A stretch of 51,778 nucleotides of DNA, taken from IMG/VR virus record IMGVR_UViG_3300043783_000043, positions 1-51,778 of that record; one strand, 5' to 3'. The position numbers and the translations under genes were made by a program. Below, piece by piece: positions 2,563 to 39,072 of this stretch. Origin of the DNA: a virus (lineage: Duplodnaviria > Caudoviricetes). The first letter of the stretch is position 1, and each line of letters starts with the position of its first letter. The notes under the pieces are model-generated. The model was not told the origin of the DNA, ran no database searches, and was given only the letters and a program-made list of their open reading frames with translations.

Positions 2563-4671
2563 ATGCATTCACTTCCTACTGTAACAGAACGCCCGGCGCA
2601 ACCCCCTCGCGCCCCATTAAAGCATGCTTTTCCTGCCACAATGCAGGCGTTTTGGGACGCCTCGATTGCGCGCGGCCTGTTCCCGCTTGCAATAGCGCCC
2701 GGAACTAAACGACCGATTGGCGAGGGCTGGAACTCCTGGACGATGCCGATCGCACATCCAGGCGCCGGCTCCATCGGCTACCGCTGCGTTGACCGCGGGC
2801 TAACAGGCTTTGATACCGACGTGAGCGAGCCAATCCTTTCAGCTCGGCTTCTGGCAGCCTTCCGCGAGGTCCTAGGGCCTAAGATTCCCGTGCGGTGGGG
2901 TAACAAGCCCCGGTTTCTTATCCCCTACTTTTTGACTGACGCGCCGGTCAAAGGCTGCACATTCGAATTTGCGACTGGCGAGAAGCTGCAGCTTATCGGC
3001 GGTCAGTTTGTCGCCTTCGGCCCGCATAAAGACACCGGACAGCCGTACGAATGGGAAAATTGGGATAGCGAATGGCCACGTCTGACGAAAGCGCAGGTGC
3101 TCGACGTGCTGGCGCGCGTACCTGCCATGGCCGGCACGTCGCTCCGCATGCACGCCGAGCACGAGACATGCGACCTGGCAGAGCTGCAAGAGGCCACACC
3201 GCAAACGGAAGATGAATGGCAAGCCGGGCGCGACGCTTCCATGCGCTATCTCGGCATGCTGAAACAAGAATTGATGGGAAGATGGGAGGGCCGCGGCTCA
3301 ACGATTTTCGCGATCGTGGGCGTGCTCAAATTCGGCGAAATGACCGGCTTGTGCACGCGGGAACAAATCGAAGGCGCCGTGATCGAGGCGGGCCATACTT
3401 TAGACGAAGGCCACGGCGGACGCGTGCTTGGCGAGGAGATAGCGCGGCACGATTCGTTGCCCGTACTCCGCGGCAACCTGATCATGGGTGCCATTATGGC
3501 CAGGCGTACATTAAAGCATGCTTTTTTAGAGGCGCAACGAGCGCCGACCTTGGCCGGATGTACGGGCTTTGAGCTTTCACTAAATGACGACACTGCGGAA
3601 CTGCCGTGGCTGCTTTACCAAAGGATTCTATGCGGCGAGGTCCATTTGTTCACTGGCCACTCGGGGGCCGGCAAATCAACTGTGGTCACGGATATAGTCT
3701 ATAGCTACCTGACTGGCACCGCATGGCTTGACGCGGATGTGGAGAAGACTGGCGGCCATGTAATGTGGATCGCCGCGGAGGATGATTACGGCACCGAGCG
3801 CCGCATGCGTCATCTTCTCAGGCAGCATCCTGACGGCCTTGCGCTCGCACAGCGGTTCCATTTGATTCGCGCAATTACTGAGCCCCTCGCCTTCGAGCAG
3901 CAATGCATTGCCCTGATCCAATCAATGGCGGCCATGGGCAAGCGCACCGACGTGCTCGTGCTGGATACCTGGGGAGCTTCGGGCCTGTGCTTTGCGGATA
4001 ACGACACGGAAGCAGTTCTCAGGGCCATGTTCATCCTAAAGCTGGTAGCGCGCCGTACGGAAACAGCATTGCTGATCACGGACCACTTGCCGCTCGGGAA
4101 CGAAGACGCGTGGCAAAAGGGCAACGGCGCCAAGTCGGGCAACAGCGGATTCGTCTATCGCATCACGGCTGGCAGGCAAGAACAGATTTCAATTGATTGC
4201 GGCAAGGCCCGCGGCGCTCCGAAGGCAAAGAGCTATGCCGGCCGAATCGTTTCGGAACCGTACGGGACTGATCGCAAGGGCCGCACAACCACCGTCAACG
4301 TGTTCCGACGCGAAAATGTTGTGAAAGAAGCCGAACAAACAGCGCCGATCCGCCTCGCTGCGATGTTGCCCGGCGCTGTGGCAGAGGGTATGGACGCCTT
4401 GCGAGGTGGGCAGATTGTCAAGTTTGAAAGTGTCAGCGAGCTGGGGAGCAAATTGGCCGATGACGAAGTTCCGGGCCACGTCGTCAACCGCGACGCAGCG
4501 TTCCGAATTTTCGGCAAAGATGGACTAAAAGGCTTGCTCGACTCGGGCTATTTACGTACAATGCGAAGCGCTCCGTACTATGCCGTTTACTCGCCAGTGA
4601 ATGGCCATACAAAGCATGCTTTAGTTATGCCGTGGGCAATAGAGCTACCGAAAAACGGACCATGGAGCTAA
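2563..4671 (+). CDS. Bifunctional primase-polymerase fused to a RecA-type (AAA_25/SF4-like) helicase
   Basis: N-terminal prim-pol motifs (PGTKRPIGEGW, GFDTDV, FVAFGPH); Walker A GHSGAGKST; Walker B VLVLDT. Confidence 0.85.
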   Translation: MHSLPTVTERPAQPPRAPLKHAFPATMQAFWDASIARGLFPLAIAPGTKRPIGEGWNSWTMPIAHPGAGSIGYRCVDRGLTGFDTDVSEPILSARLLAAFREVLGPKIPVRWGNKPRFLIPYFLTDAPVKGCTFEFATGEKLQLIGGQFVAFGPHKDTGQPYEWENWDSEWPRLTKAQVLDVLARVPAMAGTSLRMHAEHETCDLAELQEATPQTEDEWQAGRDASMRYLGMLKQELMGRWEGRGSTIFAIVGVLKFGEMTGLCTREQIEGAVIEAGHTLDEGHGGRVLGEEIARHDSLPVLRGNLIMGAIMARRTLKHAFLEAQRAPTLAGCTGFELSLNDDTAELPWLLYQRILCGEVHLFTGHSGAGKSTVVTDIVYSYLTGTAWLDADVEKTGGHVMWIAAEDDYGTERRMRHLLRQHPDGLALAQRFHLIRAITEPLAFEQQCIALIQSMAAMGKRTDVLVLDTWGASGLCFADNDTEAVLRAMFILKLVARRTETALLITDHLPLGNEDAWQKGNGAKSGNSGFVYRITAGRQEQISIDCGKARGAPKAKSYAGRIVSEPYGTDRKGRTTTVNVFRRENVVKEAEQTAPIRLAAMLPGAVAEGMDALRGGQIVKFESVSELGSKLADDEVPGHVVNRDAAFRIFGKDGLKGLLDSGYLRTMRSAPYYAVYSPVNGHTKHALVMPWAIELPKNGPWS

Positions 4672-29817: not shown

Positions 29818-30468
29818 ATGCTTTCTCTTGACATGATGAAGCGACGTTGGCCGCATGGGAATCAGCACATCCCCGGCCTGATCGAAGGCATTGTCGCGTC
29901 GGCCCCCGCCGTGATCGAACGATATGCGCTCGCCAAGAGCGGCAAGCTTGCGCTTGTTCTCGCTCATGCCATGGGCCAGTTTAGCGAGGAGTGTGGCTGT
30001 GGCCTCGAAATGATCGAGAGCCTCAACTATACAGCCATCCGGTTAAGACAAATTTTTCCCACGCATTTTACTCCATCCATGGCCGAACGTTGGGCTCACA
30101 ATGAGAAGATGATCGGCGAGATCGCCTATGGGGGGCGGATGGGGAATGCGCCGCCGCCGTCAACAGACGGCTTTGACTTTCGGGGGGCAGGACTATCCCA
30201 GGTCACCGGCCGCGAGGGCTTTGCCTCCCTCCAGCAGAAGCTCGACGCCATGAACGCCGGCTTCTCGATCCTCGACGATCCTGGATTGATCATTGATCCG
30301 GCTCTTACATTTGAATGCGGCATTGCCGACTGGATTGTGTGCGGATGTTTTCCCCATGCCGAACGCGACGATATTCTCGGCGAGACACGAGCACTCAATG
30401 GCGGCCTCAACGGACTGAATGAACGCCGTAGACAGATCGGGCTGTGGAAGAAGGAATTTGGGACATGA
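29818..30468 (+). CDS. Endolysin, GH19 family
   Basis: GQFSEE, ESLNY, YGGRMGN, FRGAGLSQVTGR, TRALNGGLNGL. Confidence 0.85.
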   Translation: MLSLDMMKRRWPHGNQHIPGLIEGIVASAPAVIERYALAKSGKLALVLAHAMGQFSEECGCGLEMIESLNYTAIRLRQIFPTHFTPSMAERWAHNEKMIGEIAYGGRMGNAPPPSTDGFDFRGAGLSQVTGREGFASLQQKLDAMNAGFSILDDPGLIIDPALTFECGIADWIVCGCFPHAERDDILGETRALNGGLNGLNERRRQIGLWKKEFGT

Positions 30469-30947
30469 TTCGCCTTCGTTTCGTGACTGGAAATTCATGG
30501 GTATCGAACGCAATTCGTGCTGGCGAGCGCGATGGGTGGTGTACCCATGTCGAAGCTGTAATGCCGGATGGAACGCTCTTAGGTGCGCATCTTGTCGGTG
30601 GCGTACAGGCGCGGTTGGTGGGGTACGACAAGGCAGAGATGACACGGGAACTGTTCGTCGAGCTTCATGCAGCCGATGCGACAATTTATGCGCCTGATAT
30701 CGAGAACGTCTTTTACATCTTCCTTCGTACTCAGCTCGGCAAGCCCTACGATACCGAAGCAGTCCTAGGGCTCGGCGTCGGTCGAAACTGGCGTAACGCG
30801 GATTCGTGGTTCTGCAGCGAATTGATAGCGGCTGCCCTCGAAACCTGCGGCTATCTGCCCAGACTCTCGGCGGCCGACAACCACATCAGCCCGCGGGACT
30901 TGCTGCTTGTCCTGAGTGGGCGCGTTTCAATCCCTGACGCAGCGTAG
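30465..30947 (+). CDS. Permuted papain-like NlpC/P60 (YiiX-like) enzyme
   Basis: THVE, QLGKPYD, WFCSEL. Confidence 0.8.
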   Translation: MIRLRFVTGNSWVSNAIRAGERDGWCTHVEAVMPDGTLLGAHLVGGVQARLVGYDKAEMTRELFVELHAADATIYAPDIENVFYIFLRTQLGKPYDTEAVLGLGVGRNWRNADSWFCSELIAAALETCGYLPRLSAADNHISPRDLLLVLSGRVSIPDAA

Positions 30948-37092: not shown

Positions 37093-37515
37093 TCACATCT
37101 GCGCTCCCACGTCTTCGGAGCGCGTTACTTGCATCGCCATGTTGACGCCAGTCCCGTCGCCGTTGTTGATGTTCAGAATGCGGAGCCGCACCCATCCGGC
37201 GCGGTGCGCGCGCCTGGACGTGGCGACTACCATATTCTGCCACTGATCGATAGGCCACGCGTTGCCGCCGGCTACTTGTTCAGCTCCCGACGCCCGCATT
37301 TCCATGAGCACGGACGCCTCCGGGGCGATCGGCGACATGGTGACCGCGCTCATTTGTGCAGAGCTAAAAGCGATCGAAGCGCGAGCGATGTTGATCGAGA
37401 TGTTGTCGCCTGTGTTGATAGGCAGCCAACCAGTTGTTTGCCCGATCGTATCAGCGTAGCAGCAATCAAATTGCCTGTTAAGTGCTTTCGTGCCTCCGCC
37501 TTGTCGGTAGAACAT
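37093..37515 (-). CDS. Virion-module hypothetical protein (140 aa)
   Basis: GGAGG SD; operon context. Confidence 0.7.
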   Translation of the reverse strand: MFYRQGGGTKALNRQFDCCYADTIGQTTGWLPINTGDNISINIARASIAFSSAQMSAVTMSPIAPEASVLMEMRASGAEQVAGGNAWPIDQWQNMVVATSRRAHRAGWVRLRILNINNGDGTGVNMAMQVTRSEDVGAQM

Positions 37516-37516
37516 G

Positions 37517-37942
37517 CTATGCCTCCAAGTATCGTACAGCGTTCTGTAGCAAGTCTGTACGATCTTTGAAACAACCGAGTCCTATATTGCAGTGGTGGCA
37601 TAGAAGTCCGCGTACGGCGTCGGTCGCATGATCGTGGTCTACGCAAATCTTAATGCCAATAAACGCAATTCCGCAGATAGCGCATTGAGCACCTTGCGAA
37701 ACAAGCAACGCTTGAAAATCTTCTAAACCCATACCGTATTTGTAGGTAAGCCACGTGGCTTGCCTTCGTTCGGCTGACTTATTTCGAAAAGTCTCATCTC
37801 GGCCGTACCGCTCTTTGGCCTTTTCGATCAGGCAAGCTTGGCAATACGTGCTACCATTAACGCGTTCGCGACGATGCTGTGCAAGGTCATGCCCCCGCTT
37901 GCAAAGCGCTTTACGCTTTGGTCCTGTAGGTCCTCGCATCAT
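37517..37942 (-). CDS. Endonuclease VII-like His-Me nuclease
   Basis: KYGM...QCAIC...VDHDHATDAVRGLLCHHCNIGLG. Confidence 0.9.
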   Translation of the reverse strand: MMRGPTGPKRKALCKRGHDLAQHRRERVNGSTYCQACLIEKAKERYGRDETFRNKSAERRQATWLTYKYGMGLEDFQALLVSQGAQCAICGIAFIGIKICVDHDHATDAVRGLLCHHCNIGLGCFKDRTDLLQNAVRYLEA

Positions 37943-38264: not shown

Positions 38265-38411
38265 CTACTTGGATTTGCGCGTGACCGGCTTTTCGCCCTC
38301 TTTGCGCGTGCCGTTGAAGATCATGGCCGCGTGTTTCTTCAACAGCGCGCTGGGCATCTTAGGGTGCCCGGCGCGCAATTCCCGCTTAATCGCTTCGTAC
38401 CGGCGCGGCAT
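38265..38411 (-). CDS. Small basic protein (48 aa) containing the mini-array protospacer
   Basis: Not in ORF track; MPRRYEAIKRELRAGHPKMPSALLKKHAAMIFNGTRKEGEKPVTRKSK; synonymous differences to the spacer support coding. Confidence 0.7.
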   Translation of the reverse strand: MPRRYEAIKRELRAGHPKMPSALLKKHAAMIFNGTRKEGEKPVTRKSK

Positions 38412-38422
38412 GTGGTCTACTT

Positions 38423-38512
38423 CGGTTCATCCCCGCGCGTGCGGGGAACGCGACAAGCTGCTGAAGAAACACGCAGCCATGATCGGTTCATCCCCGCGCA
38501 TGCGGGGAACAT
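38423..38512 (-). CRISPR. Type I-E CRISPR mini-array (2 repeats, 1 spacer, no cas genes)
   Basis: 29-nt repeats ATGTTCCCCGCATGCGCGGGGATGAACCG (38484-38512) and GCGTTCCCCGCACGCGCGGGGATGAACCG (38423-38451); 32-nt spacer 38452-38483. Confidence 0.9.
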
Positions 38513-38518
38513 GCAGCT

Positions 38519-38800
38519 CTACTTCTTGTTGTAGCCCATGGCCTTCGATGGCTTGCCACCCATGCCTTCTGTGGTGCGCTTGCCGTCCAGGCCAGTCCGC
38601 CGGCCGCCGAAGGCCGTATTGCCGTGGTAGGTCACGCCGTCGTTCAGGCCCCCGCCATCGGATAGGTTCGTTTTGGCGAGCCTGCGGTTGCCGGTGCTGA
38701 TATCGGCGGCGCCGCCGGGAAAGCGTTTCAGTGGCCCCGCAGGCACGGCAGGACGGCCGCCAAATTTGGTTGTCGGCGGGCCCATTAGGTTTGGCGTCAT
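38519..38800 (-). CDS. Small basic Gly-rich protein (93 aa)
   Basis: GAGA SD before ATG38800. Confidence 0.65.
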   Translation of the reverse strand: MTPNLMGPPTTKFGGRPAVPAGPLKRFPGGAADISTGNRRLAKTNLSDGGGLNDGVTYHGNTAFGGRRTGLDGKRTTEGMGGKPSKAMGYNKK

Positions 38801-38850
38801 GTCATTCTCGCCGCTCGGATTGAAGCCCGTTTTGTGACCGCAAAAGCTTG

Positions 38851-39072
38851 TCATTTGCGCCCCCTCTGTTTGCCGCGATCACACAAGCCGCCCGGCAACT
38901 TGTCCTGTGGCTGCGCAACGCGCATGATCTTGCTATCTGCCGCGGATGCCGGTAACGCGTAGCGCGAAAGCACGGTCGTCCGAATCGGACCATCATACTT
39001 CAATTCTCGAGTCGGCGGCACTCGCGGTTTGCGATTTGCTATCCCGAGCACCTTGTCTCCCATGGACTTCAT
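38851..39072 (-). CDS. Small basic protein (73 aa)
   Basis: ATGA coupling. Confidence 0.6.
   Translation of the reverse strand: MKSMGDKVLGIANRKPRVPPTRELKYDGPIRTTVLSRYALPASAADSKIMRVAQPQDKLPGGLCDRGKQRGRK

What the first reader, a model, noticed from the sequence alone, without database searches (positions are those of the whole stretch)
38265..38512. Cas-less type I-E CRISPR mini-array whose spacer matches the next phage gene, with AAG PAM
Seen: two 29-nt I-E-type repeats flank a 32-nt spacer, with no leader and no cas genes, between two late genes. In crRNA orientation (minus strand) the spacer is ATCATGGCTGCGTGTTTCTTCAGCAGCTTGTC. It matches 38320-38351 (ATCATGGCCGCGTGTTTCTTCAACAGCGCGCT) at 26/32, about 100 bp away, directly preceded by AAG (38317-38319). 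Positions 1-8 are perfect; mismatches fall at 9, 23, 28, 29, 31 and 32. In the frame of the 48-aa gene 38265..38411 the spacer reads DKLLKKHAAMI versus SALLKKHAAMI, and the two internal mismatches are synonymous (GCA/GCG, CTG/TTG). Established: AAG is the canonical I-E PAM; PAM-distal mismatches hinder R-loop locking and Cas3 recruitment; viral mini-arrays against related viruses are known. Inference: the spacer comes from a competing relative's orthologue, so host Cascade would destroy the competitor while sparing this phage. Alternatively, partial pairing lets host Cascade act as a repressor or decoy on the phage's own late operon.
Basis: partly seen in the sequence, partly recalled or inferred. 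Interest (0 to 1): 0.9.

Follow-up and report, generated by a model that had tools for sequence, protein, structure and literature searches.

The report
Phage mini-CRISPR aimed at its relatives
An uncultured phage carries one bacterial-style CRISPR spacer but no cas genes, and the spacer matches the neighbouring gene of its closest relatives better than its own copy, which makes it a clean new example of a known virus-against-virus weapon.

Summary
The window is a whole 51.8-kb phage record. At 38423-38512 on the minus strand, two 29-nt type I-E repeats flank a 32-nt spacer. There is no leader and there are no cas genes.

Comparison with relatives shows a 102-nt insert between the stop codon of a 111-aa gene and the start codon of a 48-aa gene. 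Three distinct relatives from public collections lack the insert, as do three bridging contigs in two metagenome runs.

The relatives match the spacer at 30-31 of 32 positions behind an AAG PAM, and their only differences can form wobble pairs. The phage's own copy matches at 26 of 32. It keeps the PAM and seed but differs at positions 28, 29, 31 and 32, the region that controls R-loop locking.

This fits the published pattern of leaderless viral mini-arrays that target an adjacent gene in related viruses. It is therefore a new member of a known kind, not a new system.

Still untested or unknown:
- the host
- crRNA processing
- interference against relatives
- whether the phage's own copy is really spared

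No perfect protospacer was found, and only one array-bearing genome exists. Interest is moderate. A bolder reading, a homing-like weapon-plus-antidote cassette, remains open.

The parts
38484..38512 (-). CRISPR repeat 1 (29 nt). Its last 8 nt would supply the 5' handle of the crRNA.
   Evidence: hairpin fold. The same 27-nt core lies next to a type I-E cas operon in L080.
38452..38483 (-). 32-nt spacer. It is antisense to the 48-aa gene family.
   Evidence: It matches the relatives at 31 of 32 (L021/L151) and 30 of 32 (L020/L152, L145), and its own genome at 26 of 32.
38423..38451 (-). CRISPR repeat 2 (29 nt). It would supply the 3' hairpin of the crRNA.
38513..38518 (-). 6 extra nt between the upstream stop codon and repeat 1. 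They are part of the 102-nt insert and are not a leader.
   Evidence: Comparison with the array-less relatives and the 'skips 102' joints.
38416..38423 (-). Right copy of an 8-nt direct duplication (GAAGTAGA) that flanks the insert. The left copy is at 38518-38525. Relatives have a single copy.
   Evidence: The joint shows 7 letters that fit on either side.
38317..38351 (+). AAG PAM (38317-38319) followed by the phage's own diverged protospacer (38320-38351).
   Evidence: Codons 21-22 are the only non-synonymous differences from L151 in this gene.
38265..38411 (-). 48-aa gene of unknown function, the target gene family. It is conserved in 11 protein clusters and 20 IMG/VR loci.
38519..38854 (-). 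Upstream 111-aa gene of unknown function. Read-through from it would transcribe the array.
   Evidence: No promoter-like or terminator-like site lies between it and the array.

Best explanation
This is a cas-less, leaderless type I-E mini-CRISPR array carried by a phage and used against its own close relatives.

Shown:
- A 102-nt repeat-spacer-repeat insert sits in the same orientation as its flanking genes, between two genes of a co-directional block.
- Relatives lack the insert. They carry a protospacer with an AAG PAM that pairs with the spacer except for one or two wobble-compatible positions.
- The carrier's own copy also differs at positions 28, 29, 31 and 32.

Inferred:
- The array is transcribed by read-through from the upstream gene.
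- The host's Cas6e cuts at the two repeat hairpins and releases a 61-nt crRNA, made of an 8-nt handle, the 32-nt spacer and a 21-nt hairpin.
- Host Cascade loads this crRNA, forms a full locked R-loop on a co-infecting or superinfecting relative, and recruits Cas3 to degrade it.
- On the carrier's own genome the R-loop stalls before 28 bp and stays unlocked, so the carrier is largely spared.
For: Repeat identity:
- 29-nt repeats, a 32-nt spacer, a 61-nt period and a stable hairpin.
- In the one locus I examined (L080, 1 of 1), the core sits directly downstream of cse2-cas7e-cas5e-cas6e-cas1-cas2.

The array is an insert:
- The L020 and L021 phages have 5 nt between the stop codon and the ATG where the window has 107 nt.
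- Whole-genome alignments break exactly at the array.
- One X1 contig and two X3 contigs bridge the site without the array; two of these joints skip 102 nt and one skips 106 nt.
- 0 of 20 IMG/VR loci that encode the 48-aa homologue have an I-E-like repeat within 3 kb.
- Neither G001 nor G002 has the repeat anywhere in the record.

The relatives are targets:
- The spacer matches at 31 of 32 in L021/L151 and 30 of 32 in L020/L152 and L145, each next to CTT on the gene strand, which reads AAG as the PAM.
- One contig each in X1 and X3 carries the five bases that make a 31 of 32 match.
- Read directly from the sequences, the differences at positions 9 and 23 give rU-dG and rG-dT pairs.

The carrier's own copy:
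- Against its closest relative, 8 codons of the 48-aa gene differ. Six are synonymous. [quoted passage not shown]
- Ser21 is unique among the window protein, 11 homologous protein clusters and 20 loci.

Support from the literature:
- Passages in PMC6859484 say a minimum R-loop of 28 bp is needed for locking and that positions 28-33 are decisive.
- Passages in PMC6858448 and PMC7099407 describe the same design: spacers against adjacent genes of related viruses, the carrier's own locus mutated, and leaderless arrays in phages.
Against: - No perfect protospacer exists in three collections. The exact 32-mer gives 0 hits in viral contigs. A degenerate 26-mer finds only the relatives.
- Only one array-bearing genome is known, so conservation cannot show selection. 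I could not check read support, because no run held more than 0.17 of the sampled words.
- The host is unknown. The repeat is shared by many phyla. The only host lead is one spacer from a Burkholderiaceae MAG that matches a different gene at 26 of 32 with a non-canonical PAM.
- There is no RNA evidence.
- Self-sparing is not assured. The PAM and seed are intact. Two of the four distal differences (positions 29 and 31) can form rU-dG wobble pairs. In PMC6859484 a target mismatched at positions 28-33 was still cut, only 5-fold more slowly. PMC7099407 stresses the cost of primed adaptation from imperfect self-matches.
- The direction of change at codon 22 is uncertain. The window's GCG (Ala) equals the codon in the more distant homologues L153-L155.
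- The clustering of substitutions is only modestly unusual. There are 128 window-specific substitutions in 3732 comparable columns, with a few similar clusters elsewhere. My rough estimate is p of about 0.03.
- No integrase appeared among the roughly 40 ORFs scanned, and the phage has its own replication genes. It may be lytic, and the published model expects less benefit for lytic phages.
Confidence: 0.55

Rival explanations
1. Functionless relic. A piece of a host array that once targeted this phage lineage was captured by illegitimate or spacer-mediated recombination. It now persists as a neutral or slightly harmful passenger.
For: - The genotype is a singleton: 0 of 20 homologous loci, and none of the bridging contigs in 2 runs, carry it.
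- The insert has no leader, and an 8-nt duplication at its ends suggests a one-off insertion.
- The two repeats already differ at 3 of 29 positions.
Against: - Both hairpins and both 3' handles are intact.
- The insert lies in the transcribed orientation.
- The spacer still matches living relatives at 30-31 of 32 with the PAM.
- A passenger that self-targets would be lost quickly unless the carrier's own site had changed, and it has.
Confidence: 0.15
2. RNA anti-CRISPR or decoy, like Racr or Cracr. The transcript soaks up Cas6e and Cascade subunits, or redirects Cascade onto a host cas promoter, and so weakens host immunity against the carrier.
For: - Phage-borne I-E repeat units and Cracr arrays are documented (review passages; sections 7 and 8 of the preprint 10.1101/2024.10.29.618823).
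- 17 other IMG/VR contigs carry this same repeat core, many as single units.
Against: - The spacer has the full 32 nt, unlike the 21-24-nt pseudo-spacers described for I-E Cracrs.
- Its clear homologue is a phage gene.
- It has no seeded match in 120 I-E loci totalling 812 kb; the best is 23 of 32 with no PAM-proximal run. The true host was not among known candidates, so this test is weak.
Confidence: 0.1
3. Self-directed regulator. Either unlocked Cascade bound at the phage's own 26 of 32 site acts as a transcription roadblock, or the spacer pairs in cis with the 48-aa reading frame in the primary transcript and controls its translation or stability.
For: - The PAM and positions 1-8 are intact on the carrier's own copy.
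- The crRNA would pair with the non-template strand of the gene (read from the sequence).
- The 241-nt transcript is predicted to form a long duplex of about 30 bp between the spacer and the ORF, at -119.9 kcal/mol with z = -6.6 and 0 of 200 shuffles as stable.
Against: - The spacer matches the relatives' allele better than the carrier's own, which is the opposite of what a self-regulator should evolve.
- Relatives manage without the insert.
- The duplex follows automatically from any antisense spacer placed next to its target.
Confidence: 0.08
4. Assembly chimera between phage reads and a host CRISPR array.
For: - There is only one record, and its reads could not be examined.
- The I-E repeat is very abundant in the metagenome runs I laid reads from (depth table).
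Against: - The insert has two clean junctions at a single intergenic site, sharing only 8 nt of identity.
- It holds exactly one repeat-spacer-repeat unit.
- The spacer is homologous to the neighbouring gene, and the carrier's own target is altered.
- A k-mer graph error would not produce all of these features together.
Confidence: 0.03

Closest known systems
Leaderless mini-CRISPR arrays of phages and prophages. They are attributed to Faure et al. 2019 by PMC6858448 and PMC7099407. I did not see the Faure paper itself.
   Same: One spacer, no cas genes and no leader. The repeat is of a bacterial type. The spacer targets an adjacent gene in closely related viruses but not the carrier.
   Different: Here the carrier keeps the PAM, the seed and 26 of 32 identity, and differs only in the locking region. 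The host is unknown, and the phage shows no integrase among the roughly 40 ORFs scanned. I could not check whether this record is already in that paper's lists, because supplements are closed.
SPV1 and SPV2 mini-CRISPR arrays of Saccharolobus portogloboviruses (Medvedeva et al. 2019, PMC6858448, passages read).
   Same: Virus-borne arrays of 1-2 spacers that target relatives. The targets lie close to the array. The carrier's orthologous loci carry point mutations or deletions. Proposed use is heterotypic superinfection exclusion.
   Different: Those arrays have host-like leaders with promoters, target each other reciprocally, belong to archaeal non-lytic viruses, and were tested in cultures. 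Here there is no leader, targeting is one-way (0 repeats in G001 and G002), and there is no experiment.
Viral Cracr arrays (Liu et al., bioRxiv 10.1101/2024.10.29.618823; abstract and sections 7 and 8 read).
   Same: Phage-borne, cas-less arrays of I-E repeat-like units that host Cas6e processes and that load into Cascade.
   Different: Cracr pseudo-spacers are short (21-24 nt in the I-E example) and match host cas promoters or CreT. This spacer is 32 nt and matches a phage gene. No match was seen in the 120 I-E loci sampled.
Single repeat units acting as RNA anti-CRISPRs (Racr), as summarised in PMC11656645 (passages read).
   Same: Host-type CRISPR repeats in phage genomes without cas genes.
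   Different: A Racr is a lone repeat with no targeting spacer. Here two repeats enclose a full spacer that has identifiable targets.
Intronless homing by free-standing homing endonuclease genes in phages. This comes from my own knowledge; the papers were seen only as a search listing.
   Same: A small insert lies between conserved genes. Its target site is in the neighbouring gene of relatives that lack the insert. The carrier's own site is protected by substitutions.
   Different: The insert encodes only a guide RNA, and the nuclease would have to be the host's Cascade-Cas3. No evidence of gene conversion or spread is available.

Membership tests
Type I-E CRISPR repeat-spacer unit | 29-nt repeat with a G+C stem-loop, a 32-nt spacer and a 61-nt period | tested here: met
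   The stem has 7 bp and the loop 4 nt, at -14.3 kcal/mol for each repeat.
Type I-E CRISPR repeat-spacer unit | The same repeat is associated with type I-E cas genes in cellular genomes | tested here: met
   The core occurs in at least 120 genome loci. In L080 it lies next to cse2, cas7e, cas5e, cas6e, cas1 and cas2 (CT1978 type) (1 of 1 locus examined).
Type I-E CRISPR repeat-spacer unit | Processed by Cas6e into a roughly 61-nt crRNA that loads Cascade | not testable with these tools
   No RNA data are available. The one RNA run I laid reads from had a single contig, and it lay outside the array.
Type I-E CRISPR repeat-spacer unit | AAG-type PAM 5' of the protospacer on the strand identical to the spacer | tested here: met
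   AAG is present in the window, L020, L021 and L145. That AAG is the I-E PAM comes from my own knowledge of E. coli; I did not measure it for this repeat family.
Virus-borne mini-CRISPR array for interviral conflict | 1-2 spacers in a viral genome, with no cas genes | tested here: met
   The window is a whole virus record. It holds 2 repeats and 1 spacer and has no Cas7e, Cas6e or Cas1.
Virus-borne mini-CRISPR array for interviral conflict | Repeat identical to that of the host's own CRISPR system | tested here: inconclusive
   The host is unknown. The core is identical to arrays in many bacteria from several phyla.
Virus-borne mini-CRISPR array for interviral conflict | Spacer targets a closely related virus | tested here: met
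   The spacer matches at 30-31 of 32 with the PAM in relatives of 84-92% nucleotide identity. No 32 of 32 match was found.
Virus-borne mini-CRISPR array for interviral conflict | The carrier's own orthologous site is altered | tested here: met
   The own copy matches at 26 of 32, with extra differences at positions 28, 29, 31 and 32.
Virus-borne mini-CRISPR array for interviral conflict | Cas-dependent exclusion of the targeted virus | not testable with these tools
   This needs infection or plasmid-interference experiments.
Cracr / crRNA-like regulatory RNA | Shortened pseudo-spacer with partial match to a host cas or creT promoter | tested here: not met
   The spacer has the full 32 nt. Its best match in 120 I-E loci is 23 of 32 with no seed. 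The true host's locus was not available.
Racr (single repeat unit) | A solitary repeat with no functional spacer | tested here: not met
   There are two repeats and a spacer with identifiable targets.
Free-standing homing element (a 'works like' comparison only) | Encodes its own site-specific nuclease | tested here: not met
   The 102-nt insert has no conserved ORF. A 31-aa ORF across it is absent from relatives by construction.

The most novel reading that the evidence does not exclude
The mini-array and the resistant allele 70 bp away form a linked weapon-plus-antidote cassette that spreads like a homing element.

Host Cascade-Cas3, guided by the phage's crRNA, would cut array-less relatives in the neighbouring gene during co-infection. 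Recombinational repair from the array-bearing genome would then copy both the resistant allele and the array into the relative. This would be RNA-guided 'intronless homing' that borrows the host's nuclease.

It would explain the proximity of viral mini-arrays to their targets, which PMC6858448 calls unexplained. It also fits the anatomy here: an insert between conserved genes, a target in the adjacent gene of insert-less relatives, a protected own site, and a free-standing endonuclease VII gene inserted 0.5 kb away that is also absent from both relatives.

Three searches listed no paper that proposes this for mini-arrays. I saw these as listings, and read passages of one review.
Probability: 0.12. 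Interest if true: 0.8.

Novelty: new member of a known kind. Interest (0 to 1): 0.4.

Why it matters
This is an unusually clean natural example of a phage turning its host's CRISPR system against competitors. The insertion boundaries are exact to the base, because insert-free relatives are in hand. The targets are identified, and the carrier's own site differs exactly where Cascade decides whether to lock.

That makes it a compact test case of about 250 nt for three open questions:
- whether PAM-distal changes alone can protect a carrier
- what imperfect self-matches cost through priming
- why viral mini-arrays sit next to their targets

It does not reveal a new kind of system.

Tried and rejected
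Host identification failed.
- The repeat core occurs in at least 120 loci from many phyla.
- I compared 2010 and then 2045 spacers from those arrays with the window, G001 and G002. Only background-level hits of 23-26 of 32 came back.
- The best hit is a spacer from the L032 Burkholderiaceae MAG. It shows codon-level homology to window 30720-30751, but the PAM there is GTA. The exact spacer has 0 hits in viral contigs.

No isolated relative was found.
- Terminase large subunit is at most 31% identical to any phage in the collection.
- A 3-kb DNA query gave no match, and the 48-aa protein gave no match.

Function of the neighbouring genes is unknown.
- Pfam and PHROGs gave nothing for the 111-aa, 48-aa and 104-aa proteins, or for most of the minus-strand block.
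- The protein atlas returned only hypothetical clusters scoring below 0.9.

Other negative results:
- Rfam matches only two plant microRNA families, below their thresholds. These hits are caused by the inverted repeat and I rejected them.
- No tRNA genes were found.
- Sequencing runs: no run held more than 0.17 of the sampled words, so the array-bearing genotype could not be checked in reads. The RNA run X9 gave one 178-nt contig at 37948-38031, which says nothing about transcription of the array. X2 did not cover the junction.
- I do not name a habitat from these small shares.

Flank-duplication survey. The longest shared words beside 10 other viral mini-arrays were mostly at chance length. 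L003 was the exception. The duplication in the window rests on the comparison with relatives, not on that statistic.

Tools and files that were closed:
- I did not use the look-up of encoding contigs, which its description says is closed.
- Supplements are closed. This record may already be listed in the supplementary data of Faure 2019 or Medvedeva 2019, or in Table S2 of Liu et al. (an IMG/VR screen), and I could not check.

Full report
WHAT IS THERE

The window is a complete IMG/VR virus record of 51,778 bp, estimated 99% complete. It encodes a primase, helicase, DNA polymerase, exonuclease, portal, capsid, large terminase and endolysin.

On the minus strand two 29-nt repeats, at 38512..38484 and 38451..38423, enclose a 32-nt spacer at 38483..38452. 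The 27-nt core occurs twice in the window and in none of 100 shuffles. Each repeat folds into a 7-bp stem with a 4-nt loop.

In the one locus I examined, L080, it lies directly downstream of cse2-cas7e-cas5e-cas6e-cas1-cas2 and in the same orientation. It is therefore a type I-E repeat, and the minus strand is the crRNA sense.

The phage has no Cas7e, Cas6e or Cas1. Only 6 nt separate repeat 1 from the stop codon of the upstream gene, so there is no leader.

THE SELF-MATCH

The spacer equals the plus strand at 38320-38351 in 26 of 32 positions. The mismatches are at 9, 23, 28, 29, 31 and 32, and AAG lies at 38317-38319. The next-best site in the window scores 20. Of 300 random 32-mers from the window, 295 have a best non-self match of 24 or less.

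RELATIVES

A search with the upstream 111-aa protein found two related phages. L020 belongs to G001 (52.7 kb, complete) and L021 belongs to G002 (21 kb). A degenerate protospacer pattern found the same two in viral contigs. In metagenome contigs it found L144, which is identical to L020 over the stretch printed, and a third relative, L145. It found nothing in genomes.

Nucleotide identity to the window around the locus is 91.7% for L021, 82.6% for L020 and 80.7% for L145. Genome-wide, 36.3 kb aligns to G001 at 84% and 15.3 kb aligns to G002 at 88.6%.

In all three relatives the stop codon of the 111-aa gene is followed by 5 nt and then the ATG of the 48-aa gene. The window has 107 nt there. 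The array is thus part of a 102-nt insert flanked by an 8-nt direct duplication (GAAGTAGA), of which relatives have one copy.

Contigs from two of the four metagenome runs I laid reads from bridge the site without the insert. X1 has one contig of 4905 nt and X3 has two contigs. Two of the three joints skip exactly 102 nt, and the other skips 106 nt. Neither G001 nor G002 has the repeat anywhere. Among 20 IMG/VR loci with a homologue of the 48-aa gene, 0 have an I-E-like repeat within 3 kb. The array-bearing genotype is so far unique to this record.

THE TARGET

All three relatives encode DKLLKKHAAMI where the window has SALLKKHAAMI. Their protospacers match the spacer at 31 of 32 (L021/L151) or 30 of 32 (L020/L152 and L145), each next to the AAG PAM. 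One contig each in X1 and X3 carries the five bases that give a 31 of 32 match.

The relatives' only differences are at positions 9 and 23. Both are transitions that would give rU-dG and rG-dT pairs, as read from the sequences. No 32 of 32 match exists in the collections I searched.

THE CARRIER'S OWN SITE

Against its closest relative, 8 codons of the 48-aa gene differ. Six are synonymous. The two non-synonymous ones are adjacent codons 21 and 22, each with two changed bases. They fall on spacer positions 27-32.

Ser21 is unique among the window protein, 11 homologous clusters and 20 loci, where Asp or Glu dominates. Ala22 equals the codon of more distant homologues, so only part of the difference is clearly derived in the window's lineage.

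The cluster is modestly unusual. There are 128 window-specific substitutions in 3732 columns, and about four comparably dense clusters. My rough estimate is p of about 0.03.

Passages in PMC6859484 state that Cascade needs an R-loop of at least 28 bp to lock, that positions 28-33 are the major determinant, and that locking precedes Cas3 cleavage. The same source reports that a target mismatched at 28-33 is still cut 5-fold more slowly. Positions 29 and 31 here could also form wobble pairs, so protection may be incomplete.

MECHANISM PROPOSED

These steps are inferred. Read-through transcription from the upstream gene would produce the precursor; no promoter-like or terminator-like site lies nearby. 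The host's Cas6e would then process it into a 61-nt crRNA. Host Cascade would load the crRNA, lock on relatives and recruit Cas3, but would not lock on the carrier. I put this at 0.55.

A side effect is that the unprocessed transcript is predicted to pair the spacer with the 48-aa reading frame, at -119.9 kcal/mol with z = -6.6.

The 8-nt duplication keeps both the upstream stop codon and the purine-rich stretch ahead of the downstream ATG. That may be why this particular insertion survived (inference).

RIVALS

- Functionless relic of recombination with a host array: 0.15.
- RNA decoy or Cracr-like anti-CRISPR: 0.10. The full-length spacer argues against it, and there is no seeded match in 120 I-E loci, although the true host was not sampled.
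- Self-regulator by a Cascade roadblock or a cis duplex: 0.08. The better match to the relatives' allele than to the carrier's own argues against it.
- Assembly chimera: 0.03.

COMPARISON WITH WHAT IS KNOWN

Passages in PMC6858448 describe viral mini-arrays whose spacers hit regions close to the array in related viruses. The carrier's own locus is mutated, and the reason for the proximity is called unclear. The same paper notes that phage mini-arrays lack leaders and target adjacent genes of relatives.

PMC7099407 models the cost of such near-self spacers through priming. The review PMC11656645 treats mini-arrays and single repeat units as established. The preprint 10.1101/2024.10.29.618823 describes Cracr arrays with shortened spacers aimed at cas promoters.

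This locus meets every testable feature of the first class and fails the defining features of Racr and Cracr. It is a new member of a known kind. I did not see Faure et al. 2019 itself or any supplements, so the record may already be listed there.

MOST NOVEL READING LEFT OPEN

The weapon and the resistant allele lie 70 bp apart. The insert sits between conserved genes, and the target lies in the adjacent gene of insert-less relatives. This anatomy is that of intronless homing by free-standing endonuclease genes, a comparison from my own knowledge.

If Cas3 damage to a co-infecting relative is repaired from the carrier's genome, the cassette would be copied into it. Three literature searches listed no paper that proposes this for mini-arrays (seen as listings, plus passages of one review). 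With one array-bearing genome it cannot be tested here. I put it at 0.12.

LIMITS

There is no host, no RNA evidence, no read-level check and no experiment. The search of earlier findings and the supplements were closed.

Noticed in passing
window 37517-37942 (minus strand): A 141-aa endonuclease VII / HNH-type gene (Pfam PF02945, E 4e-19) is absent from both relatives. In them the 104-aa gene's stop codon overlaps the start of the next gene, and both genome alignments break at 37513/37939. This looks like a free-standing homing endonuclease inserted 0.5 kb from the mini-array.
   Followed up: partly
L154 about 2961-3000 (upstream of its 48-aa homologue): A 12-nt tandem duplication (AAGAAGTAGGGC, two copies) sits at the same stop-to-start junction where the window has its insert. 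Either the junction is prone to duplication, or this is a footprint of a lost insert.
   Followed up: no
L009 and L011 (the same mini-array in two IMG/VR contigs): The spacer of this I-E mini-array has a 31 of 32 match 310 nt away in the same contig, with ACG in place of an AAG-type PAM. This is a second case of a spacer next to its own near-target, here apparently protected at the PAM.
   Followed up: partly
L019: The mini-array spacer has a 22 of 32 match only 60 nt from the array, with an ATG PAM. The score is borderline against a background of 17-21.
   Followed up: no
L003: A 14-nt direct duplication abuts the last repeat of this mini-array, with its other copy 39 nt upstream of the array. 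This resembles the flank duplication in the window. 8 other arrays showed only chance-length words.
   Followed up: partly
window 30720-30751, inside ORF 30444-30947: A spacer from an I-E array of a Burkholderiaceae MAG (L032, same 29-nt repeat) matches at 26 of 32, with the first 20 positions exact. The translations are homologous (WLRMQLGKPYD versus FLRTQLGKPYD). The PAM in the window is GTA. This is a weak lead to the host.
   Followed up: partly
L003-L019 (17 IMG/VR contigs): The same I-E repeat core occurs in 17 other viral contigs as single units, 1-2-spacer mini-arrays and one 6-spacer array (L016). This repeat family is commonly carried by viruses.
   Followed up: partly
L006 (a 4306-bp IMG/VR contig): I-E repeats sit at both ends of the contig, with about 4.1 kb of phage-like structural sequence between them. 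This could be a phage fragment inside an array or an assembly artefact.
   Followed up: no
window 38319-38484: Two plant microRNA families in Rfam (MIR837 and MIR918) match here below their thresholds. The hits are spurious and are caused by the 28-nt inverted repeat between spacer and protospacer.
   Followed up: yes
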